Below the pieces are notes generated by a model. That model was not told where the DNA came from. It did not search any database and saw only the letters and a list, made by a program, of their open reading frames with translations. A DNA stretch of 63,891 bases, filler included, from Sluysia triapertura (lineage: Eukaryota), in the NCBI GenBank assembly GCA_046118255.1. It is 5 parts of 5 records of this genome, joined end to end, with 100 filler letters (N's around TTAATTAATTAA, not from the genome) between each part and the next. Parts side by side here need not be neighbours in the genome. Positions count along the whole stretch, not along the records: positions 28,437 to 40,561 come from JBJNIA010137173.1; positions 40,662 to 52,702 come from JBJNIA010145610.1; 3 more parts are not named here. One strand, written 5' to 3'. A program made the position numbers and the translations under genes. Positions 29,004 through 54,059 of the stretch are shown piece after piece (positions within the stretch are counted from its first letter, which is position 1; each line of letters begins with the position of its first letter).

Positions 29004-29149
29004 ATGTTTGGATATAGACATAAGGTGCCATTTTGTATAATTATATATAGTAATCTAAAAATTGTTAGACGGGGCTGATACCTCATTGGTAGAGCATCGA
29101 ACTGCGCAGCTAGAGGTCCCGGGTTAGTCCACTTTATGAAGTCTAACAA
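29004..29149 (+). repeat. tRNA-Ala-derived repeat copy (T arm deleted)
   Basis: ggggctgatacctcattggtagagc...agtccactttatgaagtctaaca with the shared leader. Confidence 0.75.
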
Positions 29150-30758: not shown

Positions 30759-31037
30759 TCATAAGTTTATTTAAACGACTTTGTGTACTTGTCCTAAAGT
30801 AGATATAAACAATGTACTAAACATTGAAATGCCAAAAGATGATAATATAATGAAATTGTCATATAATGAATTCATATTTGAGATTTTTAGAAAGTTTAAA
30901 AATTGTTACGTAATTACTATAAGTGGTTTATAGTTTTAACTGAATTAAGATATATTTAAGGCTTATAACTGAATTAAAAAAGTTTACATTATTAGCTCCT
31001 TACTTCCTGCAATATCAATATGAAGTTTTATTATTCT

Positions 31038-31190
31038 GTTAGACTTCATAAAATAGACTGACCGGAGATCGAATCCGGGACCTCTCGTGTGCAGTTCGAA
31101 ATCTCTACCACTGAGTTAACGATTTTATTTTATTATAGTCAATTTTATCAAATGGCACTTTAGGCTTTTTTATCCCAACAATTCTACTTA
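31038..31190 (-). repeat. tRNA-Ala-derived repeat copy
   Basis: ctcagtggtagagatttcgaactgcacacgagaggtcccggattcgatctccggtcagtc plus shared leader and tail. Confidence 0.75.
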
Positions 31191-31779
31191 ATTTATAACT
31201 TTTCAAATGTAAATAAACTTACACTATTAACACGATTTTAAGTTATTTTTATTACATTAAATAACATACATTCTTTTATACTTTTAAATATTAATACTTT
31301 AGAGAAAATTTTCTAATTTAATTGAAAAAATTTATTAAAATATTCTATTAACATGTATTTCGGTTTTTTGTTTTTTGTAATTAGTTATAACTTGCAAAAC
31401 ACTTACTCTTTAACAAATTCAAGAAGATAATTTTGTACGTGTACTATTACTACATATCTGATAGATGCAAAGAATTCGTTGACAATGAAGCACTAAGTAA
31501 ATTTAGGAAAACTTTATCATTTACATAATCATTTATTTTATTTATTTGTAAGACAATTTAAAATTTTTGAATTTCAAGCACTTCATGTTTTATTTAGGTT
31601 TCACTGTTTAAGAAAGCACACTTTGTGTTAATCAGTAAATAAGGCTAAACTGATAATCTCTTTCATTTATTTTTAAATTTGTAAAATTTTAATTGTTTTA
31701 ATATTTGTAGTTTTAGCTTTCTACATTTTTGATTAGACATGGTAAAATTGACGCTTTTATAAAATGTAATTTTATTTAG

Positions 31780-32214
31780 AGCAAGCGAAAAGTTGAAATT
31801 AACATAACTGATCAGTTTGTGAAATCAATGGAAAATCAAAGCGAAAGTGAATTTAACAATCTTGATGTACCTGAACATTTTAAATATGGTGTTCATTACG
31901 ACGATGGATACAATTACATGCAACATTTAGTCAGTATGAAAGATTTCAAAAATCCTAATTTTGAGTTACCAGTAATTAATTTTCGCAAAGATTCTATCGC
32001 TTCTGTCTATAAAAGTGAAGTTGAGGACAATTTATTTGACGAAAGTAATAGCCTGAATGAAGAAGAAGCTGACGAATTTTTTGAAAATTTTGTTAACAAT
32101 AATGAAGCAAAAACTGTAAAGGAACAGCCACAAAATGTAAGGAACAAAAAAGTGTCATTTATGGATGGTTTTGTAAAATGTCTTTCAGAAATTACAAACG
32201 ACATTCATAAAGAA
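31780..32214 (+). CDS. LTV1: LTV1-like 40S ribosome biogenesis factor, internal exon (gene partial or degenerate)
   Basis: KYGVHYDDGYNYMQHL matches the LTV1 YG.F.DD.YDY.QHL motif, followed by an acidic region; ag/gt boundaries. Confidence 0.7.
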
Positions 32215-33974
32215 GTAAGCATTTCAGTATTTTAAGGCAATGAGCCATTTTTTTAAATGAATGTATTTTTTAACATTATTGAACCATTTTCATTACTACT
32301 AATATACACTTTGTCATTAAACAAATAAAAAATTTTATATGCAAATGAAAAAATTATTCAAGTGTAATTAAGATTAATAAGCTTAATTAAATCACTCATT
32401 CTAAACTTTAATAGAGTATTCTTTAATTGGATTCACATCAACTTCGTAAAATTATCCTTCATGTTTATAATGACTGAAACATTTAAAATTTTCAAAAAGT
32501 ACGACAATTTTACTGAAAATAATTTAAAACGAAACGAAAACATCTTAGTAATATTTATAGCTTTAAATATATTTTAGACTTTGAAATTATGAAAGAAATA
32601 TATCTCAAAATCCATAAATGTGCAGCCAAAGTAATTCTTCATTCACTGATAACTAATATAAATTTTAATAATTGTATTTTGATTTTGTGAGGAAATCAAA
32701 CAGCAAGTATACTTTTAGAAATAAGAATTCATAAAAAAGGAAAAGGGTGGTAGTAAAACCATATTCTAGCAACGAAGATTGTCAATAAAATAGAAGTTGT
32801 GTCCGGACAGTCTGAGGCGACTTTGAAAGAAATTAAAAGAAAAATGAAATGAGTTAACAATAACAAAATCAATCATTCGTCGATGCCTAAGATACTCAAG
32901 TTATCACAGAGAGAAATAAAAGGAGTAAATGAATTGAATAAAATACAGTTAATGCTTAAATAAAAATGCAAATATTGGATTCAACATATATAAATTTTTA
33001 TTGTGTGTTTCATGGACATCTTATTTTTATTACTATGATTTTATTAAAATCAAATTGTACAGATTATTATAAAAATTATCTAATTAAATTATATTTTGAT
33101 GAGTTTCATTAAAGATTTTACTTTACTGAAACAAAATTTGTTATTAATTTTTTGTTACAAAAATGTTTAGGTTTATTCTATACATTTTTATGCGTTACAT
33201 TTATTTTTTATGTATTGTAAATGAACAGCATTTTAAATCGTAAAAAGTATTTATGTATCTTGAACATTCGCGCTGATATGGCTATGTGATTAAACATTAG
33301 ATCTAATCCGAAGTTTTATTGAGGTACGTAGAATTTTTATTAATATTAAAATTATTACTGTAACTAATTAATACTTGCAAATTGACAGGAAAATGTTTAT
33401 TTCATTTTTATGTAATAACGATAATTAAACAACATTTTTAAAACTATAAAGTAATAAAATATCATGTTTTCGACATATTGAATGATCCTTGCAACCAATT
33501 AAACAAGAATTTCAATCACTTAGCTGAATAATCCCTTTTCAAAGGAAATAGAACTTATAGGAAGATACTAAATGTTCAGGAAACTTGGTCGAAGTGAATT
33601 TCTATATTAAACTTGGTCAATAATAGAATTTCGAATGTATAAACTTATAATAAAAACTTATAAAACTTTCACTTTTACGAATCATGATGTAAGCTTTAAC
33701 ATTATTGGATATGAACTTATGCTTGTCCTGGTATTTTAACTTATGGGTTCGTTTATAGTCTACGGTTTATGTCTGAACGAGGTGGTAGTTCTAAATATGA
33801 CTCCTTAATTTTCTTTTATAAATCACTATCCTAAAATTCTTACTCTTTTAACTAACATGAACTTTTCTGGAGTCTTAACTAGATTTATGAATATTTTACT
33901 TTAATTTGAGTAATTGCTACAATACACTTTCCAAATTAAATAACTAATAAGACGCAATTGCAAATAAATTAATT

Positions 33975-34920: not shown

Positions 34921-37379
34921 AAGTGTTTCCTAACGTGGGGCCAATTTGAAAATGGAATCGACAAAACTTTAACCCTTTCGTCCCGGGCTATTTAAATGCA
35001 GTGCTAGATATCGGTGCCAAATTTAACAAAAGAAGCAAATTCTTAAATAATTATCAGATATAATTTCGTTTGACGAGACCAAAATATAACTGGGTGATTG
35101 GTCTCGTCGAATAAACTTGGCTCGTGGTTTACCGCGAAGTGTGCAGTCTGACGGGGTGGGGCGGAACCCGGCCAGTCAAGAAATTCGCACCTAATTGGCC
35201 TATCATTACAGCTGTAGTGTTTCACATCATTCTGAAATAAATGTCCGTCAAAATTGTAGTAGAAGCTCGTTTTTTATAAATATACATATTTATTATATAG
35301 ATATAATTGGTAAATATTTTAATTTATTTCAATTTTAGAAGCATAACTTTGCAGAGTTTTTTCAAATAGAAAAAATTTAGGTACCTATGGATTTGCGGTG
35401 GCAGTATAGTAAATGTGTTATATACATTTAAATAAATATGAATTTTTAGTATACATTTGCTCTATGTCACAGTGAATTAATTTTAACACATTTTAATATT
35501 ATTAAAATGAGTAATGCAAGCAAGAAAAAAACTCGTCAATGTTCGGAGGAATACTTAAATTTGGGTTCATACCTGCTGTTCAAGATACGCGGATTCTTTT
35601 TTGTCTTTTATGCCAGCAATACTTGAGTAACAAATCAATGAAACAAAGTCGTCTTGAGGCGCATTCGAAGGCGAAACATAGTGCTCATATTAATTCAGAT
35701 TTGAGTTACTTTAAAACATTGAAGGAAAACTTTGAAAAAAGAACAAAGTCGCTAATTACTGCCCATACTTAAACCAATAATCTTGTTCTTGAGGCTAGTT
35801 ATCAAATTTCTTTATCGCTAAAACTGGAAATCACACTATAGGAGAGAATTTAATAAAACCGTCAGTACCAGCATTTCTTAAAATGGTTCTTGAAAAAGAT
35901 GTAAAAGCTATGCCACTCAGTAAAAATACTGTTAGCAGAAGAATAGACGAAATGAGTGAAGATATGGAAAACAACTTGTTGAAAAGCTGAAAACAAGAAA
36001 ATTTTCAATGCAAATGGATGAATCAACTTTGAGAGATGGTGGGGCAGTATTGATAACTTACTTAAGATATATTGATAAAGATATATTGTAAAATATTAGA
36101 AAACGCCGCTACTCTCAAAGATATATTTAATAAGCTAACAAAGCTACTTAAATGTCAATATGACAATGAAAAATATAACATTTTGTGCTGCAGATGGTGA
36201 TCCAAATATGATGGGCAAGAAAAATGGTTGCTTAAAATTGGTGAAAGATGCGAATCCAGAAATGATTCTTGTGCATTGTGTTATTCATAGGCAAAACTTG
36301 GTAGCTAATAACATATAAACATACTGTAATAAAATGTGTTAATGTTATTAAAGCTAGTGCCAAATATGAGTCTTTTCAAGCTATTTTGTGAAGAACAAAA
36401 TGAAAACCATGTAAGGCTTTTACTTCATACTGAAGTAAGGTGGCTATCTAAAGGAAACTGCTTGAAATGATTTAAGGAACTGTTTGATACTCTTAGTGAT
36501 TTTTTAAGCGACAAACCAGAAATGAAGCATCTATTAACAATCGATGGTAAAGCCTTTGTGAGTTATTTAGCCGATATCTTTAACAAACTAAATATATTAA
36601 ATAAGCAACTTCAAGGAACAAATAAAACTCTTGTCGATGCAAAAGCGAAGATATTTGAGTTATGGCAGAAACATATTAACAACAAAAATTTGAACAGTTC
36701 CACTGGCTCCAAAAATGTGAAGTAACTGATAACGCTGTACTTGTTATTGTAAATCATTTGAATAATTTATCTGCCGATTTAAAAGAAAAATTTTTAGATT
36801 TAAAACAAATTTATTTCCCAACATGGATGATGCAGCCAATGTTAGTGGATTTGTCTGATATATCAAATATGCAGTATCAAGTTAAACTCGCCGAATTGCA
36901 AAATGATGACTCAGTTATATAGTATAAAAGATGCGATGGCATGGCTCAACCATCTTCATTTTTGGCTGAATGTGAATTTAGTGCTGTAAATGATTTACTG
37001 ATAAAAAAGAAATCGGCTGGATATAACACAACGTGGGGATTTGAGACTGAAATTGGAACCCAATATAAAATCTCTCTGCAGCAAGCATCAAGCACAAGGA
37101 TCTCACTACATTAAAATAACAAATTAATATAGAAAAATTATTATTAAAATTATTTGGAATTTGAATTTCAGTTTTTCATTATATGTTTTGAAATTTTACT
37201 TACTCTGTTTTTTTTAACAATTTGATAGTGATTTATTCTTAGAATCCATCATTTATGTTTCTTAAGTGAACAAATCAGTTTTTTTAATGTTACATATTAC
37301 GCATGTTACATAGGGAGAGGCATAAAAACTTTCGAAAGATTAAAGTGGGGCATGGCACAAAATAGGTTGGGAAACACTG
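34921..37379 (+). mobile_element. Near full-length hAT Charlie/Buster transposon
   Basis: TIRs (c/a)AGTGTTTCCTAAC / GTTGGGAAACACTG enclosing a transposase. Confidence 0.92.
35507..37113 (+). pseudogene. ZBED5/SCAND3-like hAT transposase, frameshifted
   Basis: BED finger CLLC...HSKAKH, QMDES, ADG.PNMMG, HCVIHRQNL, LLLHTEVRWLSKG, YLADIF, QAQGSH. Confidence 0.92.
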
Positions 37380-39252: not shown

Positions 39253-41390
39253 TAAAATTATTTTTGATCTTACAAAATTATTTTTGATCCTAACTAAAGA
39301 AAAGTTATTACAGAATAAAATAAACATTGACAAAGAAATAAATAAATTTCCATAAGTTATTTTAGTTAGATTATAAGTTATTAAAAAAATTAACTGTATA
39401 ACTTAATCGTACTACTCAATGATAGTTAATAGTATAGTATAATTAAAGCACAATTATTACTAAGTGAAAAAAATTCTTTGAATTTGAAATTACATTGATT
39501 AAAAATTGTCAAGCTTTGAATAAATGAAACTTTAACGAAATTACGTAACTCCAATAAAATGTAAGAGAAAAATATATACAATTTGAAATTTAAATTAAAT
39601 TAATTAATTTTATGTATATAATTCTTATTTATATTTTATAATTTTTGATTTATTTTATTGGAACACATAATAATCATAAAATTATTTTGTAATTTTCTTT
39701 TTTTGATCAACAAAAACATTTGAAATTCTTTTTCAGATATTAAACTTTTTATTTATTTAAACTTTTCATTATTATTTTATTTTTATTAGTATTATTTAGA
39801 TGAATATCGTTTCTATATAGAAATTGAAAATTTGGATTACCTTGAGAATTAATACAGATGTTTCCAATCGGATTTAAAAATTTTCCAACATACATAATTC
39901 TTGTTTGATTCAAATTATCAAAAACTTAAAATTAATGATTGTTTTGAATTTTAAGAGCATAATACAATATATAACTACTTTATCAATATAATAAATAATG
40001 ATATTTGAATTATATTTTTAAATTAATTTATAAAATGTTATTATTATTTTTATTTCTTTATTTAGTTAATAATGTAAAATTAAAAAATATGAATTTACAA
40101 TAAAATTCAAACATTAATGTAAAGATTTGTTCATAATTATATGTAAGAAATTATTATAAAACAAAAGAAAAATAAATGACAAATTATAAAATTTTACAAT
40201 AGTATTAAAATTGTAATTTAAGCCTTTACAGCTTACAAAAATCAGATCTGTTTTTTTGTTGCAATATAACTAATTATTTTCTTCACTTTTTTTATAAGTA
40301 ATTTATTTTAAATAACATATCATAAATTTGTATTATTTATATCACACAATTCTTTTGTATTTTAAAATAAATCTTATTTAAATGAAATGTAAATATTTAA
40401 GAAGTAAATGTAAATATGTAAATTTTATGTAAATTTAATTTTAATTTTTAATAATTTCTAATTTTGTATTAAATTATATCAAATTAAATGTAAATTAATT
40501 ATTAAATTTAAACTTTGAAACCAAATATTTATAAAAAGGAAATTAGCATTAAAAATAAATGNNNNNNNNNNNNNNNNNNNNNNNNNNNNNNNNNNNNNNN
40601 NNNNNTTAATTAATTAANNNNNNNNNNNNNNNNNNNNNNNNNNNNNNNNNNNNNNNNNNNNGTTGCGTAATTTATAAAATATAAAAGTCTTATTGAAAAC
40701 AACACCTAATAAAGGGTTGTAGAAGTAATTAACTAATATTAAATATAACAGTTAATAGTTTAAGAAAACCTAATAACACGTCTCCAATTTTTGTGTAAAA
40801 CGTATATATTAGGCGAACCGACCTATCGGATAATTTGTTAAGTATAAGAAAAATACTAGCAATATTTTAGTTAGTGCATGACTCGAGATGGATGGTAAAC
40901 CATCACATACAGTCATATGCACGATCTTTACTATATTTACAAAATTAATTCTTTATGATTTTAATATTACATATGACCCAACATGAGTGGGAGTACCATT
41001 ACATATGGTCAATTATGCAATATGTATTAAAAAACCTATATGAAGAAATGAGCCCTATACCTGATAAACAAATAAAATTTCGGGATAACGAAGTTAATTA
41101 TTAAGGTTAACAAAGAAGTTATTATTAAAATATAGTTTATAGTTGTGATGAAGTTATTGTTGGGCTCTCTCGTAATTGGACAATTAGTGTTTTCTTACTT
41201 ATATTCATACCTATATTGGTAGAATTCGCACTTAGGTTCCTGTTTCTATTGATAGCGACTGAAGTGATATTCGTATTCTTGTCATAAAGTATATTCGTAG
41301 CATTGTTAATGATTTTAAGTATTTTTCCTAATTTTATGTCCGAACCATTTTCGTTCTTATCTATGATTGGTACTTATACATCATGGTATC

Positions 41391-42260
41391 TTATTGTTGG
41401 CCATCATGTAATTCTGTTTTTCTCAATATCCAAAATTTGATAAACATGAGTCTATTAGTCGGGATATGATATAGACAAACAGTATCATTAGGCAATGTCA
41501 TTCCGAAACGTAAACCGTCAGATAGTTCGTACGCAATTATCAATGTATTATTGTATAACGGGTTATGAATACGTATAACATTTCCGAGATAGCGATATAT
41601 GATCATTGGAAACTCAATTACTGTTGAAGATTGTCGGAAAACAAATGGTTTAGTTCTTATCTTGTAATACCGTATCAAGATAGTTTTGGAGTTACTTTGA
41701 GAGTCATATTCTAGTTCCATAGTTATTGTTACGCTAATTAGTTGGTATTCGGCAAGATCAATGCAAGATATAAACCAATAGAAATCCTGTTTAATTGCCC
41801 TTGTCTCAATTTCACACCAATCCATTGTACAACATTTTATTTTAACGGAAAATAATTTAATTTTGTCTGTTAATATCTTAGCATAAACATCTTTCCGAGT
41901 GGCTACTAAAATTATTCTAGGTGTATTGTTTTCTGATAAATAATTTGCGCTTGATATACAAGATAGATAGATACATATCAAGATTGTAGATTTTACTTGA
42001 ATCATTTGACAGTCTCCGTATATGAGAGGTATTTGATTATTTGTAGCGTATTCATAAATTGGAGGTGGAAATATTGGCATACCTGGAGGAGGAGGAGCGT
42101 AATTGTTTCTGTGAGGAACTGTATACGCGTCGTCATCGTCATTATTTTTGTTATGCGGTAAGCATGGGTATCGACATCTATTCGAAACGAACATAATAAT
42201 AGTCAATATCACTATAACTAAAGCAATTACGAATAGTATTGCCGCACAATTAGTATCACT
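41391..42260 (-). CDS. Element-borne membrane protein: TM, proline-rich PPxY tail, second signal-like segment and ~180 aa domain
   Basis: 273-aa ORF whose open frame extends upstream to AAILFVIALVIVILTIIMFV; APPPPGMPIFPPPIYEY; ILICIYLSCISSA. Confidence 0.6.
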   Translation of the reverse strand, partial: SDTNCAAILFVIALVIVILTIIMFVSNRCRYPCLPHNKNNDDDDAYTVPHRNNYAPPPPGMPIFPPPIYEYATNNQIPLIYGDCQMIQVKSTILICIYLSCISSANYLSENNTPRIILVATRKDVYAKILTDKIKLFSVKIKCCTMDWCEIETRAIKQDFYWFISCIDLAEYQLISVTITMELEYDSQSNSKTILIRYYKIRTKPFVFRQSSTVIEFPMIIYRYLGNVIRIHNPLYNNTLIIAYELSDGLRFGMTLPNDTVCLYHIPTNRLMFIKFWILRKTELHDGQQ

Positions 42261-42754
42261 AACGCTGGATCATTCCGTAATATCTCCAATATGGTTAGAT
42301 GTTTTCTTGTTCCTTTAAATGCAAAGTGCAAGTATTTTGATGAGTGACGGTATTTCAGTATAATATGTCTATCTTCAACAGGTAAAATATCGGACAGGTA
42401 AAACCAGACAGGGTCCTTTAGTTCACTATTAATATAATTTTCGTATATAACCCATGCGCTAAAGTTAAGTCTGGCAGGTTTCAAACATGCAAATTTGGCA
42501 TGAATGTTTTCATTCAATATTTTAACTTTTACTTCATTGTCTCTATTATAGAATTCAAAATATTCCGTTTTAAAAGATTGTTCGTGACATTGAACTACTG
42601 TAATTATGGTAATCAAAATTAAAGGTATAAGATTTTTATTGTTTGCGGGAACCCGTATTTTCTTACCTATTTGGTACACATAGAGTATAGTCCAAAATAT
42701 GTATAGTAACGTAAAAGTTAGTAATATTATAAAGAATTTATAAGATTGTTCCAT
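42227..42754 (-). CDS. Element-borne membrane protein (TM, signal-like segment, ~115 aa domain)
   Basis: FFIILLTFTLLYIFWTILYVY then LIPLILITIITVVQC. Confidence 0.6.
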   Translation of the reverse strand: MEQSYKFFIILLTFTLLYIFWTILYVYQIGKKIRVPANNKNLIPLILITIITVVQCHEQSFKTEYFEFYNRDNEVKVKILNENIHAKFACLKPARLNFSAWVIYENYINSELKDPVWFYLSDILPVEDRHIILKYRHSSKYLHFAFKGTRKHLTILEILRNDPALVILIVRQYYS

Positions 42755-42786
42755 TGTACCGTTTGCAGTTGAATTGTTTAAATTAC

Positions 42787-43248
42787 CTATTGATTTTTTA
42801 ATCGTGCCATAATCAGATAAGGTGTCTGTATTTTCGTTGTTTCCTCGTTTCGCAACTGATCTATTTGCTTAATAAATTTCTGAATATCCCGTGTATTTCT
42901 TGGAGTGTCAAAAGAGAAAGTTATTAGCATTGGTCTATAACCGTAATCTAGACAATGTGGGATACCGTCTAAATGATATGGCTTTCCCAATAATAATTGT
43001 TTCAAATAGATACAATAGATTTCGAATTTGTGTCCAAGAATCATTTTCTTAGAAATGAATTCGAATTTCCAATATTGATTGTAAATATCAGTAATCATTA
43101 TTTTCTGTTCCCTGCCATGATTTATAGCTATATTCATATTTTTATATTCTTCGTCCGTTTCTGTTGCCATGACATTAGTTACAAGTGATAGAAAAATCAC
43201 AATTAAGATAGAAAACCAACAAGTTATTTTCCCAAAACGATTTTTATT
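42787..43248 (-). CDS. Element-borne ORF with signal-peptide-like N-terminus
   Basis: Open frame KNRFGKITCWFSILIVIFLSLVTNVMA-TETDEEY..., overlapping the end of the protease ORF. Confidence 0.55.
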   Translation of the reverse strand, partial: NKNRFGKITCWFSILIVIFLSLVTNVMATETDEEYKNMNIAINHGREQKIMITDIYNQYWKFEFISKKMILGHKFEIYCIYLKQLLLGKPYHLDGIPHCLDYGYRPMLITFSFDTPRNTRDIQKFIKQIDQLRNEETTKIQTPYLIMARLKNQ

Positions 43249-43908
43249 AAGACAGTTTCTTCATTATGGTATCCTGAATATATGAACTGATTTCTGAATC
43301 CGAATTCTCTTCTGGTGTAATTGATGATGGTGAATCCCATGACACGTCTGATAAATGAAGTGTAGATTCGACGATGTCAGGTAATGGTAAGTCTGGAACT
43401 TGTAATGGTGGATTTGACATTGGCATTTGATATAGAGTTAATTCATCACCAACCTGTGGAACTAATAGTTGCGGTCTAATCATGTTTGAACCTGGTGGTT
43501 TTTTTATAAATCCATATTTGCTGTGAATAACCATATCTTCCAATTTGTTGATAACATCCATTCCCAGTATTAATTCATATGGGCTATTATCCCAAACATT
43601 TACTAAAGTTTGTACCTATTGTCCTAATATTTTTATATAGCATGATAGAGTTCCACTGATATTTATAGGTGTTTGATTTACATTATATGTTATTAAACTT
43701 GGTCTGTTTGGGAATATTTATGAACCACAGTAATAGTAGCGCCGGTATCTACAATTGTTCTAACCCATCGTCCATTAAATCGTACATTTTGCATTATATG
43801 AGCTAAGTCATTTCCATGAGAATTCATCATAAATACCACTTGTTTATTTCTTGGTGCATGAATTGAGGGCGGTTTATCTTGATCCTTATGTCTTAGTTGA
43901 ACCTTCAA
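43247..43908 (-). pseudogene. Retropepsin-like aspartic protease plus Pro/Ser-rich tail
   Basis: VRFNGRWVRTIVDTGATITVV ... YELILGMDVI; interrupted by stops/frameshift. Confidence 0.85.
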
Positions 43909-43968
43909 TTTTGATTTTTGTACCTTTCTATTTCTTAAATTGTACTCTTCTTTTGGTGCAATTTTACA

Positions 43969-44660
43969 TCAATTAACGTGTATTACGAATGTTTCGGAAT
44001 TAATTTTGTTAGGATCTTTAACAAACACATTTGTATCGTTAACTTTTGTTATTAAATAAGGACCTTTAAATGGTTTATGCAGTTTAGGTGAATGTCCGGG
44101 TTTAGTTATTGGATAATATATTAATACTTCATCACCTATTTTAAAAGTGTGTTCCTTCACTGTTTTATCGTATACATCTTTATATATTTCTTGAGAATAT
44201 TTAATTTGAAGACCTGCACGTTTCCATGCATCTTGTAATTGTTCTCTCATTGTTGTTGCATATTCCGGAATTTCCAAGTATTGTGAGGTTCCAAATCCAC
44301 TGGCATATTAGAATGTCTGCCGTACATTAAATAGAATGGAGTAAAATTGGTTTCTGGATGTACAGAACCCTTGTAATCAAAAAGACATGGCGCTATATAT
44401 AAGTCCCAGTCAGTCTGTCTATCGTTTACATAAGATTGAATCATATTAATAAGAGTTCTGTTGAAACGTTCCACTTATCCGTCAGTTTGTGGATGGTAAG
44501 GTGATGTGTAAATTCGAAGAATATTAAAGATTTGATTACATCACTGGTAAAGTTAGTTCCTTGATCTGTTAATAATTTTCTAGGAGTTCCATATCTGTAA
44601 ATTATCTTTTCTACCAATATTTGAGCCACCGTTTCGGCTTTTTGATTAGGTTTTTGGTTA
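43969..44660 (-). pseudogene. Gypsy-type DDE integrase core plus GPY/F domain
   Basis: AETVA, YGTPRKLLTDQGTNF, TSPYHPQTDG*VERFNRTL, TPFYLMYGR, FKIGDEVL, KLHKPFKGPY, IHVN. Confidence 0.95.
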
Positions 44661-45279
44661 ATGTGCGGATTTTGGACCACCAGGTACGTTTATCCGCGAG
44701 GCTTCCAGTGAGCCACTGAAGTGCTTGTGTTAGGTTTCCGTCACAACCCTACAAAATAATTTTAAGATGTCATAATGACACCTATTTAAAACTATTTAAA
44801 GTTACAAAAAAAATCGTTTGAAACCATGGAAAATATTTTAAAATCCTTTATTAATCCTTAAAATTATTTAAAAAACAATTATTTTCCAAAAAATAAATCA
44901 TTTTTCCTAAAAAAGAAAATAAAAATTCTAAAAAAGAAAATTAGCTTATATAAATAGCTTCTATATTCTAGAACATTCCATCGATTTTCACTGGATGATG
45001 ACTAGTATATAAACTAGCATCAATACAATGAAAATCGCCATTTTTAAAATCTTTATTAGTCAGTCGTTAAAAAATTTATCACGTGACGCAGTTATTCGCA
45101 TTCGTAACAAAGCAGTTCGAAATCAATTAACAGTAAATGCCATTCAAATCTACGCTAGTTAAATATTCAAAGGATATTGGAAAGATTATTCATTCGGATT
45201 TTTTGATCAGTTACAATCCATGCAAAAAGTAATTTGTTTGTGTTAAGATTGGTATTAGTTTTGATTAAGGAAACTAATA

Positions 45280-46704
45280 TCACAAAATACACTTAAAATC
45301 ATATTCTGTTATTTGACACCAATTTAGTATGGTTTTTATGAAATTGCTTAATATTACTTTTAGATTAGTAAAATCATTTATTGAATTTAATATTCTTTCG
45401 TACAGAAAATTGTTAGATCTGATTACTAAATTTAAATAAACTTCGTTATTATTATTAAAATTTTTAATAGGTATTAAATATTTAAAATTATCAAATAATT
45501 TACAAAAAAACAATTTACGTAAATAAACAAAAGACATGTAAAAAACTCTGAAGAGATTTATTTTTTATTAAAGCATGAATTATTAATTTTGTCACTATAT
45601 CTCTGTGTACATCACGAGTTCCATCTTCTAATCGATCGTCTAAACAAAAAAATTGGATATCCAATTTATGAAAAATTTTAGTAATATAAAAATTTACATT
45701 CTTCGGTCTCGAATAGTATATACCTAGTTTGCCAATCTTCATAATTCCGATTCTCCAATGGTTGAGTAATGAACGAGTTTGTTAGTGGTTCTACTGGTCT
45801 AGTAAGTGAAAAGATAAGCGTAAGCTCTGATGTTACACGCATTTCATACAAAGCTTTGATCATTAAATTTACTTCTATGCAATCCTTACGACCCTATTTT
45901 ACATATATATATATCAACGAAGTTAAATATTTCATGACTTCTAGAATCAGTATCATCTTGGAGTGATTTAATAATCTTTAATTTTGTTCAAGCATTTGCT
46001 TTCTTTTTATAAACATAACTTTAATTTTAATACGCTTAAATGAATAATGATGATATAATGATTTGGGAATGTAAACCACTTGATACACAATTGACTGAAA
46101 AAATAGACTGTCTTCTTCATTATCATTAACTAAAACATATTTGTTGGATCTTTTAGACTTTCTATACAACCCAGTAAGTACACTTACAGATTAATGGTAC
46201 TATATCGACTATTATAAGCTGAATTTATTAGTAGTTCTGATATAATAATTGGTTTTATCATGTTTGTGTATTTATAACATTTGAGAAATCTTAATCGCCA
46301 TAAAAAATTTAAAATTTGAACCGATACAATGATCAACTTAATTAACTCTGCATTTGACTCTAATTTTAATTTTTTAATTATATCACGATTCCCATGGGTA
46401 CATTATAGTAGTTAGTACGACTATGATCATTTGATGAGGATATTGATTTACAATTTTTCAAGCATTTAGATGCTAACCAAATCTTAACAAAAGTAAACAG
46501 TTTTGCCACTGTGCGTGAATATCTTGAATCATTAAACCAAAATTTTTTATTGTAGGATTCTATAAACAAAGTCTCACTAAGACACTGCCTAATTTCCAGT
46601 ACATTTGATGCATTATATAAAAAACTTATAGTCGTTGCATTGTTTCTCTTGAATTTAGCTTTGATAATAACTATTTGATGATCCGGAATTTGAGAATAAA
46701 ACAT
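45280..46704 (-). other. Cluster of intronless, overlapping orphan ORFs (probable decayed element cargo)
   Basis: Five same-strand ORFs of 61-108 aa, three overlapping as if frameshifted; no recognisable domain. Confidence 0.35.
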
Positions 46705-47906
46705 ATCTATAATGATTTTTAATTTTTTGTCTCACTTTTGTAATGTCTAATTTTTTTGTTTATTTTTAGAATTTTATTTTGTGTTAGATGATCGGTAATT
46801 GGTCATCCAACCAAAATTGTTTATCTGGAAATTTATAAACTTGATTCTGGTTGGATGGCCAGTAACATTGAGGCGAAATTTGCAATTACAACAAAAATGA
46901 CTGCTGTGAATGATTAGCCATCATCAGTGCTGACATAAATGTAACGACAGTAATGAACAGTGTCAACACTGGTGATGATAGTAACAATTTTTAATGGTTA
47001 GATTATTGAATTAAACGAAATATATGAGATTTTATAATAATAATAATAACATTAATGTTGTTATCATTATTAATGTTATTTTACTAAGAAAATGTTTTAA
47101 AATGCATAAATCTCTTGTTTCTTTTACAAAACATGATCTTCCTTTAAATATTCTAGGTTTCTTGACATATTGCAATATCTTTAAATGTGTTATGAACTAA
47201 AATCTCTGAATAAAGATTAGTTTAAATGAAATTTATATATGTAGTTGACGTCTCTAGGTTTTATAGTATTTCTTATACAATATAATGAAATGCGGAACAC
47301 TAGAATGAACTTTTAGATATTGACTTATGTTTTTGATTGAGAATAATATTTGAATATGGGAAGATCGTGAATGAAAGACCTGTTGAGAAGAGCGTAGTTT
47401 GGTAAGCGTGAAAAGGTAAATTATAATACAACTCTTGATATATTTGAATGGTTATAGTGCACTGTTTTACGTGATTTGTTTTCTTGTTGTTTTGAATGTT
47501 ATTGTCTTTTGTGTTGTTAGTAGTTATGTAATGATAAATGATGGATTTAAAGTGTTGTAATTGACTCGAAGGTATCGAGTAGATAATTTCGAATGTAGTT
47601 GTTGTTTGATTTCAGGTTTACAGAAAGTTTTAGGAATATTTATAACCTATATTAAAAAGTATCGGTATATAAGTGACACCGATATGATTTTGATTTATTT
47701 GTTTTTATTTTTATATCTAAGGTAAATTACATAAAATATTTAAGAAAATATTAATAATTAATATTTATCTATGCCTTAATATTACATATTATGCTAGTGA
47801 AAAATAATAAAAGGGTTTTTTATACATTGCATTTAGTAAAACATATTTGACATATTTATATTTTAAGAATAATTATAATAATCTATATATTTTTTTATAA
47901 TTTAAA

Positions 47907-50900
47907 ATGAAAGTGGATTTGATATGGAGTGGTATCGTTTATGATAAAGACAAATCAGAGAAATGGTAAGATAACTTATAAATAAGTTTTTAAGTATATT
48001 TCAGTATATGGGATGCTAGTTTTAGTCCGAACGGTGAAAAAATCATAATTGCGACTGAAAAACTTGTGATTGTTTATAATTCATCTGATGGTTCAAAAAT
48101 CAAAATCCTAAAAAACCATCGTAGTTTAGTATATTGTGTTAGCTTTTCGGCAGATGGTAATACATTTGCAAGTGGTTCTGCGAATGGAGCAGTAATTTTA
48201 TTTAACAGTGAAAATTATGAAGCAATATTAAAATTTGTGTATAATTATATTTTTATTAACTTTTTTAAAGTTTAAGTAATGCAATTCAATGTTTGTCATT
48301 TAATCCAATCACCAATATATTGATAAGTGGTGCTGTAACTGAGTTTGCTTTATGGACACCAGAACAAAAGGCAATTACAAAAGTAAGAGTATCTGCTAAA
48401 GTAACTTGTTGTAATTGGACTACGGATGGTCAGTATATGGCATTAGGTTTATATAATGGTACAATTAGCATACGAAATAAGGTATTTTAATTTTGTTAAT
48501 TATTTAATAAGAATGGAGAAGAAAAAGTAAAACTCGAAAGAAGTGGTGGTGCAAATATGCCTGTTTGGACTTTGGAATGGACTAGGTAATCTCTTTTTAT
48601 TATATATGTTAAAAATAGGGCAGACCAGGTTGACATTTTAGCTGTTGGAGATTGGAGTCAAAAGTTGACGTTTTATCAATTAACCGGTAAAAAAGTAAGA
48701 TATTGCACTGATTTAACATTTTAAAGGTAGTTTATTCTGATGGTACAACTGATGTACAGTTAGCTTTAAAACAAAGGGTACTATAATTTTTCGTTTGAAA
48801 TCATTTTTGATTTACAAATGAACCTCATTAATAAATGATAATAGTTTTATTTTTCAGTAATTATAAAATACTTTGTAACTTCGATTGACGACAAAAATAT
48901 CTAACATAATTAAAGGTTCGTTTGTTTTCAAGTTCAGTTTCAATTTGATTTTACATGACAAATTTAATGATATAGGTAATTAGAAGAAATGTTAGGTTAT
49001 TGTATTATTTAATTTAAGTTTTTGTTCATACTAATTTATTTTATCAATATTTTTCAATAATGATAGCAAAACATAGCTTTAATTCTTTCGGCGCAGTTGT
49101 CTCAATTGTCTCAATCGCCTTTGATGAGAAAACGTAAGTAATCATAATGTACGTTCCATTCGCTAGATAAAGCTCTAGTTTATTTATTAAGAGATAAACA
49201 TTTAAAATTTAAAATATGTTTTATTAGTACTCTGGACTGGCCAAAACTTCATTCTTAATATATATTTTAAGATACTTCATTAAACTTATTATATAGTCTC
49301 ATTCTGTATAATATTCTGCACCACATATTCATACAAAACAACCTAAATGTATAGAAGTATAACTATAATTAATTAATTTTCTCTTGTATTTGTTGAACGA
49401 CAATTCTATCATGTACTTCGAATTGTTTTAAAAATATTTTTTCTGTTGAGAATGTATTATTTTCAATCCACTGATTTATTAACTGACGTACCTGTTCAAT
49501 TTGTGTACGCTTACAAAACAAGCTATATATTACAATCTTCACATAAACAGTGAAACGATTGCCACTTATTTGTCTTTATTATTTTATAAACAAATATTTC
49601 TTTTAACTAATACCGAATCGATTAAAATTCGAAATTCTATCTATCCTAACGGAAGGATGAAAGTGAAGTTTAACTATATTAAAAGTAAGTCTAAAGTTAA
49701 CTGAGTAAGTTTTATTTACCATAATAAATATAATTCGACTACGATGATTATAAATATACAAAATGTAACAGATAAAACATTTAATGTTAGGCACTTAATG
49801 CTTTGTTTAAATATATGAATATAAGTGAAAAGTCATAATTTATTTTTAAGTTTTGTAACAAAAATTATTGTATAACGAGCTTTGAAAATCATTTAATAAA
49901 ATTTCAGATTTATTTTGGACTTATAATTTAGCAAAATAAGATAGGTTTCAAGACATTCTCAAACACAGTATTGACTGAAATATCGTGAACTTGCGCCAAA
50001 TAAGTGAGATATAGAATAACATTTAAATTTAAATTTATTTTGCAAAACTCAGTAGTAAACATAGTAAATAAAAAGATAAAATTATTAAATAATATAATTA
50101 ATTATTATTGTTGTTAGTGTTCTAGCAACCTTATTTCGAAACTATGTGTGTAACTTAGTCAATATTCGAAATCTTATTTTTCATATGACGAATCAGCATT
50201 TAAAAGTAAAATAATGGTAACATTAATGAATAGTTATTACATTTCTACTGACAATAAAAATAGTAATAATAATAATAATAGCAAAAATATATTAATTATT
50301 AAATCTTAAAAGCTTCCCCCGAAAGCAGGGTAAATTAATGTTTTCAAAACCAAATGTGTCATTGATATTTCATAAAGAATGCCGTTTGTTATCATTGGCC
50401 AGAGTAAGGTTTTTGGAATAACCGGAACATGGTCTGGAGCTTGAGTTGAGTCAGCAGACACAGCAAGTTCTGACTGACGGATTTCTGGGTACCGGGAAAA
50501 AATATGATTCATATAGATCCGATATGACATCTTCAGCACTCCAGTAGAAATTTCAACCAGCAATTTGTTTATTGCCGATTTACCGAACTCAAAAGTCCTA
50601 GGAATGCTAATGTTATCAGGATGTATTGTGCCAATAACCGGAAAAGATGAGTAAATACCGAATAAATACTTAATTACAAAGCATTATTAATATTAAATAT
50701 AAATATTTGTTACCTTGTAGTCTAGTTTGGAAATTTTTAACTATTCGTCTTCTAATCAACGTTTTGTATTTAAATGTGCATATTTTGTAAAAATATTTAC
50801 ATATTTTAAGAATTAAGTAACCTAAAATAATAGTAATTCAATAACATTAAATAATAAATAATAAATAAAAGATTTATGTATTATAAATATCTAATAAAAA

Positions 50901-51867
50901 TGTTTTGTTTAATTGTTTTAGATTGGTAAAGAAATAAATCTAAATTTTGATCCTTGTCGTGTGTCATGGATGCGTAATAATTATTTGTTAGTTGCTGGAT
51001 CCAACAAAACGTTACAGCTTTATTCAAAAGATGGCATCAAATTAGACGATATTTATGAAACAAAATCTTGGATATGGTGCTGTAAAGCGAAGCCAAAAGA
51101 TGAAAATCGTGTAGTTAGTTTAGGTTTTAAATTAAAGTTTTTATCTGACAATTAAAGGTTCATAATATTGGCATATAAAAATAATTATACAATTAATACT
51201 AATAATAGCAGTAGAAATAGAAATAGAAATAATTGTAATAATAGTAATATTAACAATTATAAGTAATATAATTATAATAATAATTATGTGATAGTTCTAA
51301 ATTAGTGGACAAATATCCAAATAAATCTTCAATATTGTTAAAAGAAAACCTTTTGTCACTAATCAATATAAACCAAATAATCGTAAAATTTTGTAACAAT
51401 GAACATTCTTAATTTAACGTATTTTCATTATTGTAAGTCATTATCATGGATATTGTGCGGAAAAGGAGAAATGTATTGTTAATTGCTAATAAAATCTTAC
51501 TTGGAAGATTAACTGAAAGTGAATCATAATCAGAATTTTGTTATAATCAATCATAGTCAGAAAATGAACCAGAATGCTTTGACATTGAAAGTATTGTAAT
51601 TTAAAGCTAAAGTATATGCTAAATAAAGCAGTGAACACCCTCTCTGGTCATTCATTGACTTTAATTAGGCATCTTAATCGACTATCAACTAAGTCTTAAA
51701 TTAGAATAATCCTGAAACATCATACGAGTCTTATTTTAGGGGAAGCAGTATAGATTTTAACTAGATGTTATTAACAATAACAACATTTTTAGATTTCCAT
51801 ATTCTTATACAAAATATTGGATTGAATAATAAATATTTATTTTCTAATAAAAATAAAAGGAATAAGA

Positions 51868-51928
<61 letters not shown>

Positions 51929-52105
51929 TAATAATAATGAAAATAAATACTTTATAATTTATTTAGTTAATATGTGGTCAAGACGGAACATTAAATTATC
52001 TACAAATTCAATTTTTAATGATTCATAGTTTGTATAGAGATCGATATGCTTTCAGAGATGGGATGACAGATGTTATTATTCATCATTTAGTTACAGATCA
52101 AAAAG
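47907..52105 (+). CDS. IFT122: Intraflagellar transport protein 122, N-terminal WD40 region; exons 47907-47965, 48005-48238, 48271-48481, 48512-48585, 48619-48694, 50922-51113, 51967-52105; 3' part missing
   Basis: [95 protein letters not shown]; all splice phases consistent. Confidence 0.97.
50306..50650 (-). mobile_element. Probable Gypsy pol fragment (region of the integrase zinc finger) in IFT122 intron 5
   Basis: GC-richer open frame GVL..YR...VIPKTL...ILYE...HL..KTL. Confidence 0.4.
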
Positions 52106-54059
52106 GTATGGTTTCAAATTATTAGTTTTAATTTATTTTATGAAATTTAATATTAATTATTTATCACCATTTTCATATAAATAATATTAATTTCTTAAAT
52201 TTTTATTTTCTCTCTGTGTGTGTGTTGGATGGAGATTTCATTAATTATAAAATAATACAAGGACCTTTAAATAAACCTTTATCTTCGTGATAACATTTTT
52301 TCTTCAAGTGTTTGTGCATGTATAAGTCACACTAGAACTTTTTGGAAGTTATGTATAGAAGATCCCAAGGAAAACTTGATGATGCCTTGAAAATATTGAT
52401 ATTGTATGTGAAATATAAAGTTTTAGATTGTTTTAGAAAAATGGCAAAATGTTTACTATTGTTTCTTTGCAAGATTTTTCAATCTTCTGTCGTAATAACA
52501 ATTTATTATATTATAAATGACAAAACTTCATTATAAAGCATGTTAGAATAAAAGTATACAAAATGTTCAAATAAATTTCAATAAAAATTACTACTTAATT
52601 AAAAAATAAGTAGTAATTGATACTTAATAGATTAATTAAAACAAATTCAAAATTTTAAATAATATAATAGAAATTACGATTAAAATCTTTTATTGTCATT
52701 TANNNNNNNNNNNNNNNNNNNNNNNNNNNNNNNNNNNNNNNNNNNNTTAATTAATTAANNNNNNNNNNNNNNNNNNNNNNNNNNNNNNNNNNNNNNNNNN
52801 NNTAATAATACAATAATAATAATGTAAAAATTATGAAAAATTTGTAATATATCCAATTATTCTCTACGTTGAGTTCTTATGTCTCAAATGAGTGTCAATA
52901 ATTATATACCACCATTAATTCACTTAACTTGTTTAAAAGTTTAACTTAATCTAAATACTTATCTTTAATGTCGTGAATCTTATACTTGTCTCAGTTGTTC
53001 GTAAAAGTTTTCTTGAATTAAATTTCTATTTTTACAGAGTCAATTGAACTTTATTTAATTTATATTAATTTATGAATCATATTGGATTATCTCTTTATTT
53101 GGTAAACTTTACTTTGTTTTACGAAGCTTCAGTTTATCTTATAACACTGTATTTTGTTTCGTAAAACTCTATCTTACTCCTAAAAAACTATGTTATTTCT
53201 ACAGAACTTTATTTCTCAAAGATCTTTTTTATTTTGCATCAACTTTGTTTTATCGTAACTTTTAATTTATTTCCCAGAGGCTTTATTATATTTAAAACCT
53301 ATTTTTTTCAATCCTTTTAATATGAATAAAATATGATTAATATGATTAACTTTTACAAATGAATGTTAAAATTATATTATATTATTATATTATATTAAAC
53401 TAAAAAACATTTAAAATATGCAGAAAAAAAAAATTTAACAAAATATTTGCTTAATTCGGAGTTAGTTAAACCTTCTTCATTAATAACCGCTATATATTCC
53501 GCGATTAATCTCGATCAATAACAACAATGTATTCAGCGAAAAATCTCGAAAAATAACCAAAACGTAAGTTTTTGTACTGTCTTTACTTTATTGCTATACG
53601 AAAATTTTAGTGACATTACAGTTTTAGTTTCATTAGTCTTGGTTTTGCATTTGGATCATTTTAGTTTTGTTGTGTTCCGTGATCATAATTAATAAGTGAC
53701 TTTTTGTGTGCTGCGTTGGCACCATTTATTAGAAATTATTTTATACGATAAATAGTTGTAGTGACCTTTTTTGCATCGAAGTAATTTAAAAGTTTGCTTA
53801 TTTCAATATCTTTTCTATTATATTAATATTAAAGGCTTTTTATTCTCAGAACAGAATAAAAATATATTAAATTTTATAATTTTAATCATAAAATGATTTA
53901 TATACACCAATCTTAGGTTTGACTGTACTTCTTATTGTACCTTAATATTGTGTCGTTTTTTGATGTTTATTTTCGGTTCTACTGAATGATTAGGTACGCT
54001 TAGTTCCAGTCTACATCATCCATACCCTGATTTTCATTTTCTTTGTTCATTTGTTTTTC

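What the first reader, a model, noticed from the sequence alone, without database searches (positions are those of the whole stretch)
41137..43260. Modular env-like membrane polyprotein cassette downstream of INT-PR
Seen: three consecutive ORFs whose open frames overlap at each junction, so single frameshifts would join them. The pattern is signal-domain-TM-signal-domain-TM-Pro tail-signal-domain. I recognise no similarity to baculovirus F-type errantivirus env. Inference: a signal-peptidase-processed polyprotein of secreted or surface modules occupying the env position of an undescribed retrovirus-like lineage.
Basis: partly seen in the sequence, partly recalled or inferred. Interest (0 to 1): 0.85.

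Follow-up and report, generated by a model that had tools for sequence, protein, structure and literature searches.

The report
Retrotransposon with triple membrane-protein cassette
A decayed Gypsy-type jumping gene in a small-intron animal genome carries, where retroviruses keep their envelope gene, an extra protease and a chain of three small membrane-anchored surface proteins unlike known envelope proteins, which may be a different way for such elements to reach or act on other cells.

Summary
On the minus strand a 5'-truncated, decayed Gypsy-type integrase runs into a retropepsin, a Ser/Pro linker and five frame pieces.

The cassette was real protein: a diverged second copy at 4774-5022 gives dN/dS about 0.21 over 53 codons, and 13 of 13 counted N-glycosylation sequons fall on the predicted lumenal side. 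The nearest integrase relative (P0006) is an intact PR-RT-RH-IN protein that continues in frame into signal, ectodomain, TM and Pro-rich tail. Pol-fused membrane modules therefore exist in this lineage, although P0006 has one module, no second protease and no significant ectodomain similarity.

One ancestral ORF is the simplest reading but is not proven: both copies share the same net frame offset at one junction. No homolog or trustworthy fold was found, and nothing shows fusion activity; size, missing furin site and Pfam argue against F, gB or Gc envelopes. No gag, RT or LTR survives. Verdict: a new variant of an env-position cassette, function inferred.

The parts
43972..44650 (-). Gypsy-type integrase, core 3' half and GPY/F C-terminal domain; 5'-truncated; broken by two frame changes and a stop, with another stop directly after it
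   Evidence: rve E 1.1e-4; three pieces 58%, 65% and 48% identical to P0006 947-1187; GPY at 44056-44064
43820..43968 (-). Integrase tail with Y-x-L-R motif (43924-43944) and basic linker, same frame as the integrase C-terminal domain and the protease N-half
   Evidence: collinear with P0006 1189-1240, blastp E 0.015; coordinates
43530..43790 (-). Retropepsin-type aspartic protease placed AFTER integrase; DTG motif 43738-43755, ILGMD motif 43556-43573; broken by one frame change and one stop
   Evidence: Pfam gag-asp_proteas E 1.9e-4, RVP E 1e-3, both under curated cut-offs; motifs
43250..43520 (-). Pro/Ser/acidic linker between protease and first signal peptide; frame change at its end (11-nt overlap with ORF A)
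43165..43230 (-). Internal signal peptide 1 (basic n-region, hydrophobic core, small residues at -3/-1)
   Evidence: hydropathy; coordinates; cleavage site read by eye
42737..43164 (-). Module 1 ectodomain (about 110 aa) and short stalk with 3 sequons; A/B frame change lies in 42790-42868
   Evidence: no Pfam, PHROG or PDB match
42674..42736 (-). TM1, followed by a 13-aa basic cytosolic loop
   Evidence: KD 2.32
42587..42637 (-). Internal signal peptide 2
42272..42586 (-). Module 2 ectodomain, 105 aa, probably beta-rich, 1 sequon; B/C frame change follows in 42230-42269
42186..42245 (-). TM2
   Evidence: KD 3.45
42006..42185 (-). 60-aa cytosolic tail: juxtamembrane Arg/Cys, acidic run, Pro-rich Y-x-PPP stretch (42048-42101)
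   Evidence: conserved in the sibling copy; 0 sequons among 8 Asn
41946..42005 (-). Internal signal peptide 3 (starts with a Met)
41394..41945 (-). Module 3 ectodomain, 184 aa, probably beta-rich, 5 Cys, 3 sequons
   Evidence: AF2 pLDDT 40; no homolog
41140..41373 (-). ORF D: Asn/Ser/Thr-rich stalk with 6 sequons in 78 aa; separated from ORF C by a stop and a frame change
   Evidence: 116 of 10000 residue shuffles reach 6 sequons
41039..41139 (-).
4774..5022 (-). Second, diverged and independently broken copy of the module 2 end, TM2 and Pro-rich tail
   Evidence: tblastx E 5e-13 against a 5-kb subject; DNA alignment score 103 vs maximum 54 in 300 shuffles; dN 0.26, dS 1.24

Best explanation
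This is the 3' third of a dead Ty3/Gypsy (Metaviridae-type) element. In the active ancestor pol continued in one frame through integrase, a retropepsin and a linker into a membrane polyprotein. An internal signal sequence would take the ribosome to the ER after the cytosolic part is made. Signal peptidase would cut behind three internal signals and release three small type I glycoproteins: M1 (about 140-aa ectodomain), M2 (105 aa, with a Cys/Pro-rich tail) and M3 (about 270 aa with a heavily glycosylated stalk). The retropepsin beside the first signal would free integrase, which otherwise stays tethered to the membrane-embedded signal peptide. The three proteins most likely acted together at the surface of the particle or the producing cell, in attachment or cell-to-cell transfer, with M2's tail linking to cytosolic trafficking or budding factors. 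SHOWN: coding nature, past purifying selection on part of module 2, topology signals, link to a Gypsy integrase, decay, and a pol-fused membrane module in the nearest relative. INFERRED: one ORF, signal-peptidase cleavage, the protease's role, and any envelope or transfer function (about 0.4 for the last).
For: ORF lengths beyond 2000 of 2000 shuffles. Sibling comparison over three ungapped blocks (167 nt, 53 codons): mismatches 18/56, 7/56 and 25/55 at codon positions 1, 2, 3 (pos 2 vs 3, Fisher p 1.4e-4); dN/dS about 0.21; 0 stop codons in frame against 6 and 10 in the other two frames. Sequons: 13 of 42 lumenal Asn against 0 of 23 cytosolic Asn, p 0.002. Basic residues follow each TM (sequence). 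Lesion density is not different between INT-PR-linker (7 in 1406 nt) and the cassette (5 in 2205 nt), p 0.24; 7 of 8 frame changes go the same way on both sides, as expected from one decay process. P0006 is the best of 120 listed integrase relatives for the query (69% vs 59% next) and for two other integrase pieces. It is an intact 1644-aa PR-RT-RH-IN protein continuing in frame into a signal (1232-1251), ectodomain, TM (1552-1571) and Pro-rich tail with Y-x-PPP. Precedent for a pol-fused env with tandem glycoproteins: Atlas belpaovirus (PMC9094657, passages).
Against: No intact copy was seen. The sibling covers only 11% of the cassette and has the same net frame offset across B/C (anchor distances 86 and 56 nt, both 2 mod 3); chance gives this one time in three, but it does not support one ORF. 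Three of four cassette breaks sit shortly before a TM (post hoc pattern). P0006's ectodomain shows no significant similarity to any module (85 to 354 of 500 shuffles reach the score; tail alone 8 of 500, compositional); it has one module and no second protease; 0 of the 5 hits with long post-integrase extensions carry a D-T/S-G motif there (119 of 120 hits examined). The modules are not detectably related to each other. No furin R-x-K/R-R site in pieces A-D. The focal PPxY motif is not kept in the sibling. No gag, RT, RNase H, PPT or LTR survives. Segment boundaries for the sequon test and the blocks for dN/dS were chosen after seeing the data.
Confidence: 0.55

Rival explanations
1. Same polyprotein, but the three proteins are accessory surface proteins (receptor blocking, immune or signalling modulation, adhesion) and have no role as an envelope or fusogen.
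For: Ectodomains of 105-270 aa are far smaller than Atlas Gc (498 aa) or the TelKA F-type env (about 600 aa); no furin site; few Cys. PMC5408684 (passages) warns that TM domains and glycosylation sites alone misassigned bdelloid ORF3s as env.
Against: Env position, fusion to pol in the nearest relative, and small TM proteins can mediate transfer (sORF2, PMC11952523 passages). Nothing tested separates the two readings.
Confidence: 0.25
2. The frame changes are native. Recoding (frameshifting, slippage or splicing) between ectodomain and anchor makes secreted and anchored forms of each module, or the pieces are separate overlapping ORFs.
For: All four cassette breaks lie between a globular domain and its TM; the same net B/C offset occurs in both copies; one in-frame slippery heptamer lies in the A/B overlap, one of only 2 in 653 codons; one short GT-AG candidate at D/E has a consensus-like donor.
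Against: No in-frame slippery site at 4 of 5 junctions. C/D also holds a stop. Integrase and protease show the same kind of breaks at similar density. Domain ends were partly defined by the ORF ends, so the pattern is partly circular. Pieces A and D lack a Met-led signal.
Confidence: 0.1
3. Chance chimera: the protease and cassette belong to a second element or gene inserted behind an unrelated integrase fragment.
For: A protease after integrase is non-canonical and absent from P0006; the integrase itself is cut at its 5' end; the sibling fragment has no integrase within 3000-8000.
Against: The integrase tail, Y-x-L-R motif and protease N-half share one 91-codon open frame. The protease begins about where P0006 begins its signal peptide. 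GC is even at 0.29-0.37 across 41100-44700.
Confidence: 0.07
4. Captured or resident multi-exon host gene whose introns mimic frameshifts.
For: The host has very short introns (IFT122 intron 1 is 39 nt). Some 28-69-nt GT-AG candidates of frame-compatible length exist at B/C (3), C/D (3) and D/E (4).
Against: 0 candidates at PR/A and A/B; control junctions in INT/PR give 2, 2 and 1 by chance; all B/C candidates would cut into TM2. Junction GC is 0.25-0.42 against 0.10-0.18 in IFT122 intron slices. A repeated signal-domain-TM chain is typical of viral polyproteins rather than animal genes (established knowledge). Longer introns were not scanned.
Confidence: 0.03

Closest known systems
P0006 (unnamed 1644-aa Gypsy Pol)
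   Same: Closest integrase (48-69% by piece); Y-x-L-R tail followed in frame by internal signal, ectodomain, S/T stalk, TM, Cys and Pro-rich Y-x-PPP tail.
   Different: One membrane module, not three; protease only at the N-terminus; ectodomain not detectably homologous (it has two repeats that look FN3-like by eye; Pfam gave no FN3 match).
Belpaoviridae Atlas/Cer13 with phlebovirus-like Gn-Gc (PMC9094657, passages)
   Same: Env region fused to pol in one ORF and holding tandem membrane-anchored glycoproteins: the closest 'works like' precedent.
   Different: Different family; two large proteins (421 and 498 aa) of traceable viral origin with a class II fold; here three small orphan modules and a post-integrase protease.
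Errantiviruses with F-type or gB-type env (PMC13524379, passages and section 5 part 1 of 2)
   Same: Ty3/gypsy pol with a signal- and TM-flanked glycoprotein region after integrase.
   Different: That survey reports F and gB envelopes, as one large ectodomain; none of the modules matches these in Pfam, size or furin site.
Bdelloid Vesta4/Vesta6c TM-containing ORF3 (PMC5408684, passages)
   Same: Orphan TM proteins in the env position of invertebrate LTR elements.
   Different: Single 210-230-aa separate ORF with RXXR and coiled coil, or weak gp41 likeness; no signal-chained modules.
Oikopleura Tor Env (PMC4402516, passages)
   Same: Membrane glycoprotein of a Gypsy-like element in a compact-genome invertebrate.
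   Different: Own mRNA (spliced or internal promoter), furin-cleaved gp60-65.
MDG1-group sORF2 / FAST-like proteins (PMC11952523, passages)
   Same: Small TM proteins with basic juxtamembrane tail used by LTR elements, some downstream of pol.
   Different: 63-107 aa, myristoylated, tiny ectodomain, no cleaved signal.
Alphavirus structural polyprotein and bunyavirus/Flaviviridae glycoprotein precursors (alphavirus recalled; others seen only as search listings)
   Same: Logic only: a cytosolic protease just ahead of an internal signal, then membrane proteins released by signal peptidase.
   Different: RNA viruses; serine or cysteine rather than aspartic protease; no sequence relationship tested or expected.

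Membership tests
Ty3/Gypsy (Metaviridae) | Gypsy-type DDE integrase with GPY/F C-terminal module | tested here: met
   rve hit; 48-65% identity to P0006 over three pieces; P0006's best PDB match is Ty3 Gag-Pol, E 5.7e-129
Ty3/Gypsy (Metaviridae) | Order PR-RT-RH-IN | tested here: inconclusive
   Everything 5' of the integrase core is missing; a protease lies after IN. P0006 has the canonical order.
Ty3/Gypsy (Metaviridae) | gag, LTRs, PBS, PPT | tested here: inconclusive
   No LTR pair in self-BLAST; no purine run of 8 or more in 41036-40662; 3' flank runs into another repeat and an assembly gap
Errantivirus (F- or gB-type env) | Env homologous to F or gB, one ectodomain of several hundred residues | tested here: not met
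   No Pfam fusion-protein family at E<=1 or E<=10 for any piece; ectodomains are 105-270 aa separated by TMs
Errantivirus (F-type env) | Furin site before a fusion peptide | tested here: not met
   0 R-x-K/R-R in pieces A-D and the linker
Errantivirus / any viral fusogen class | Class I, II or III fusion fold | tested here: inconclusive
Belpaoviridae with Gn/Gc env | Bel/Pao pol and phlebovirus-like Gc of about 500 aa | tested here: not met
   Integrase groups with a Ty3-like Pol; no module near 500 aa; no Pfam match
sORF2/FAST-like | 63-107 aa, N-myristoylation motif, very short ectodomain | tested here: not met
   Modules have signal peptides and ectodomains over 100 aa; feature list
Ginger DNA transposons (features recalled) | Gypsy-related integrase without RT, terminal inverted repeats, optional cysteine-protease extension | tested here: inconclusive
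   No inverted repeat pair around the element; protease is aspartic; nearest integrase is part of a full Pol; 5' end missing
Signal-peptidase-processed polyprotein | One ORF and cleavage after each internal signal | not testable with these tools
   No intact copy and no SignalP/DeepTMHMM; hydropathy and sequon sidedness are consistent

The most novel reading that the evidence does not exclude
A lineage of Gypsy-type elements uses a third kind of envelope or transfer apparatus, neither F nor gB: several small signal-peptidase-released surface proteins fused to pol, with a dedicated second retropepsin between integrase and the first signal. The number and identity of modules vary between elements (one in P0006, three here).
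Probability: 0.25. Interest if true: 0.85.

Novelty: new variant of a known kind. Interest (0 to 1): 0.6.

Why it matters
[quoted passage not shown] An element with three small orphan membrane proteins chained by internal signals, plus a protease after integrase, would be missed or misread by such homology-led searches. It suggests a simple screen: look for internal signal plus TM in the C-terminal extensions of Gypsy pol, which already returns one intact case here (P0006, 1 of 119 hits examined). If the modules mediate transfer, they add an env-independent route next to sORF2; if not, they show retrotransposons carrying multi-subunit surface cargo. The protease-after-integrase order was not found in the searches named in the Full report section.

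Tried and rejected
Homolog searches with no hit: ORF C against longer proteins (0 of 644 candidates); ORF C by phmmer against 1.84 billion representatives (0 at E<=0.001); integrase C-terminus plus protease N-half against longer proteins (0 of 146 candidates; a weak negative, since it also missed P0006); Atlas for module 3 (no usable hit) and ORF B (best 0.82, beta-trefoil/CdtA-C-type clusters, in the range shuffled proteins reach a third of the time, rejected). Structure: two single-sequence models too poor to use, and fold searches uninformative. Internal duplication of modules: rejected (455 to 999 of 1000 shuffles reach the scores). Polinton-like element bounded by the inverted 100-nt repeat (40765-40864 / 59281-59379): rejected, the host IFT122 gene lies between them. 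Linking the gag fragment at 12319-12693 to this element: no shared flank. PPxY late domain: not kept in the sibling. Planarian Burro elements (recalled) could not be checked; the paper is not held. The organism behind P0006 is unknown. The host is unidentified: an orthonectid would fit the short introns (PMC6543705 passage), but this is a lead only. No complex prediction was run.
Full report
Setting. The window is AT-rich eukaryotic DNA (GC 0.17-0.37 per kb) with an IFT122 gene from about 47908 and an LTV1 exon at 31780-32235 (Pfam E 2e-18 and 1.5e-6). IFT122 intron 1 is 39 nt, and three more of roughly 31-38 nt can be read by eye. The host is therefore a ciliated, probably animal, organism with very short introns. 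An orthonectid would fit (PMC6543705, passage: short introns mostly over 30 bp), but this was not tested.

Observation. On the minus strand ORFs A (157 aa), B (213 aa) and C (292 aa) exist and overlap by 79 and 40 nt. 0 of 2000 base shuffles give such ORFs. A fifth piece at 41039-41194 carries a third TM. Read in order, the pieces give signal 1, domain 1, stalk, TM1, 13-aa basic loop, signal 2, domain 2, TM2, 60-aa Cys/Pro tail, signal 3, domain 3, glycosylated stalk, TM3, short basic tail. That is three type I membrane proteins in series. Of 42 Asn on the predicted lumenal side 13 are in sequons, against 0 of 23 on the cytosolic side (p 0.002). Boundaries were drawn from hydropathy after I had seen the sequence, and one sequon in the A/B overlap was left out because its frame is uncertain.

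Upstream. An integrase begins abruptly near 44650, followed by a GPY motif, a Y-x-L-R tail and, in the same frame, a retropepsin with DTG and ILGMD motifs, then a Ser/Pro linker. No gag, RT or RNase H lies upstream, and no LTR pair or purine tract was found. The enzyme part is dead: 4 frame changes and 3 stops in 1406 nt, against 4 frame changes and 1 stop in the 2205-nt cassette (difference not significant, p 0.24). Seven of the 8 frame changes go in the same direction. One decay process acting on one former ORF is the simplest account.

Sibling copy. A second fragment at 4774-5022 matches the end of domain 2, TM2 and the tail. In the three long ungapped blocks (167 nt, 53 codons; ten shorter blocks were dropped) mismatches are 18/56, 7/56 and 25/55 by codon position, dN 0.26 and dS 1.24, with 0 stops in frame against 6 and 10 off frame. 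Against my reading: the sibling has its own indels in TM2 and the same net frame offset between domain 2 and the tail, so it does not show an in-frame junction. The focal PPxY is not conserved there; a Y-x-PPP stretch is.

Nearest relative. The integrase core, read with X at its stop, matched 146 of 148 candidates; 120 were listed. P0006 stands out (69% identity, E 4e-30; next 59%) and is also first for two other integrase pieces. It is an intact 1644-aa PR-RT-RH-IN protein (best PDB match Ty3 Gag-Pol). After its Y-x-L-R motif it continues in frame into a signal peptide, an ectodomain of about 300 aa, a TM and a Cys/Pro-rich tail. Of 119 hits examined, 5 had long post-integrase extensions, 1 (P0006) had TMs and 0 had a protease motif there; most hits are short integrase-only proteins, so this set is not a fair sample. 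The focal protease starts about where P0006 starts its signal. P0006 thus supports pol-fused membrane cargo in this lineage, but not the three-module form or the second protease, and its ectodomain is not detectably related to the modules.

What the modules are. Unknown. ORF C has no homolog among 1.84 billion representatives or among longer proteins. Pfam, PHROGs, PDB sequences and the Atlas gave nothing credible. ORFs A, B and D were not searched in the large sets. Single-sequence models of domains 2 and 3 look beta-rich but have pLDDT 46 and 40, and fold searches were uninformative. The modules are not repeats of each other. There is no furin site.

Mechanism. Most likely (0.55) the ancestor made one cytosolic-then-membrane polyprotein. 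The internal signal engages the ER, signal peptidase releases three anchored glycoproteins, and the adjacent retropepsin frees integrase from the first signal. This follows from established handling of internal signals in viral polyproteins; none of these steps was observed. Whether the proteins served entry or cell-to-cell transfer (about 0.4) or were accessory surface proteins is open. Native recoding (0.1) is kept alive by breaks clustering before anchors, one slippery site at A/B and the shared B/C offset, but 4 of 5 junctions lack a slippery site. A host multi-exon gene is unlikely: no short intron candidate at PR/A or A/B, and junction GC of 0.25-0.42 against 0.10-0.18 in host intron slices.

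Comparison. It works most like the pol-fused tandem Gn-Gc region of Atlas belpaovirus (PMC9094657, passages) but fails membership on integrase type and module size. It is not an F- or gB-type errantivirus env (PMC13524379, passages and section 5 part 1 of 2). It differs from bdelloid TM ORF3s (PMC5408684, passages), Tor Env (PMC4402516, passages) and sORF2 (PMC11952523, passages). PMC8220671 (passages) and PMC2678813 (term search, 0 hits) added nothing. I found no description of this architecture in eight full-text searches, aimed at a protease after integrase, returned 0 papers, but exact-phrase matching is narrow and most subscription journals, Repbase reports and the planarian giant-element paper were not visible. 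No supplements were opened; the element tables of PMC13524379 could bear on novelty.

Verdict. A real, once-selected, triple membrane-protein cassette with a post-integrase protease in a dead Gypsy-type element. New variant of a known kind; interest 0.6. The bolder reading, a third envelope or transfer system in a distinct lineage, has probability about 0.25 and would merit 0.85.

Noticed in passing
window 12319-12745 (-): Separate Gypsy gag N-terminal fragment (recognised by eye; no Pfam match) preceded by a primer-binding-site-like motif near 12742 resembling the recalled tRNA-Lys site; upstream DNA does not match the focal element's 3' flank.
   Followed up: partly
window 6175-7225: Decayed Tc1/mariner-like element on the minus strand (recognised by eye) with 120-nt inverted repeats at 6175-6292 and 7106-7225, 88% identical.
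   Followed up: no
window 35515-37114 (+): Fragmented hAT-like transposase remnant (recognised by eye; the one piece scanned gave no Pfam match).
   Followed up: no
window 40765-40864 and 59281-59379: 100-nt repeat in inverted orientation, 91% identical, at the element's 3' flank; could be a separate short interspersed repeat or a piece of an LTR.
   Followed up: partly
window 45280-46731 (-): Several broken ORFs of 70-117 aa upstream of the integrase with coding-like stop depletion, no Pfam match and no copy in the window; unexplained.
   Followed up: partly
window 47908-52110 (+) and 31780-32235 (+): Host IFT122 (introns of about 31-39 nt plus multi-kb ones) and an LTV1 exon, both divergent-looking.
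   Followed up: partly
window 21916-22104, 29022-29148, 31028-31203: Three copies (about 75% identical) of a repeat with a tRNA-like segment, probably a SINE; not scanned for tRNA genes.
   Followed up: no
window 15925-16024, 28337-28436, 40562-40661, 52703-52802: Assembly joins of 44 N, a 12-nt all-frame-stop linker and 44 N; the element's 3' flank ends at one of them.
   Followed up: no
P0006 residues 1251-1550: Ectodomain fused to a Gypsy pol, with two segments that look FN3-like by eye (around 1305-1316 and 1435-1446); Pfam gave no FN3 match. An intact, foldable case worth its own study.
   Followed up: partly
window 19185-19289 (+): Weak match to the integrase core (tblastn E 0.083); possibly another integrase remnant.
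   Followed up: no
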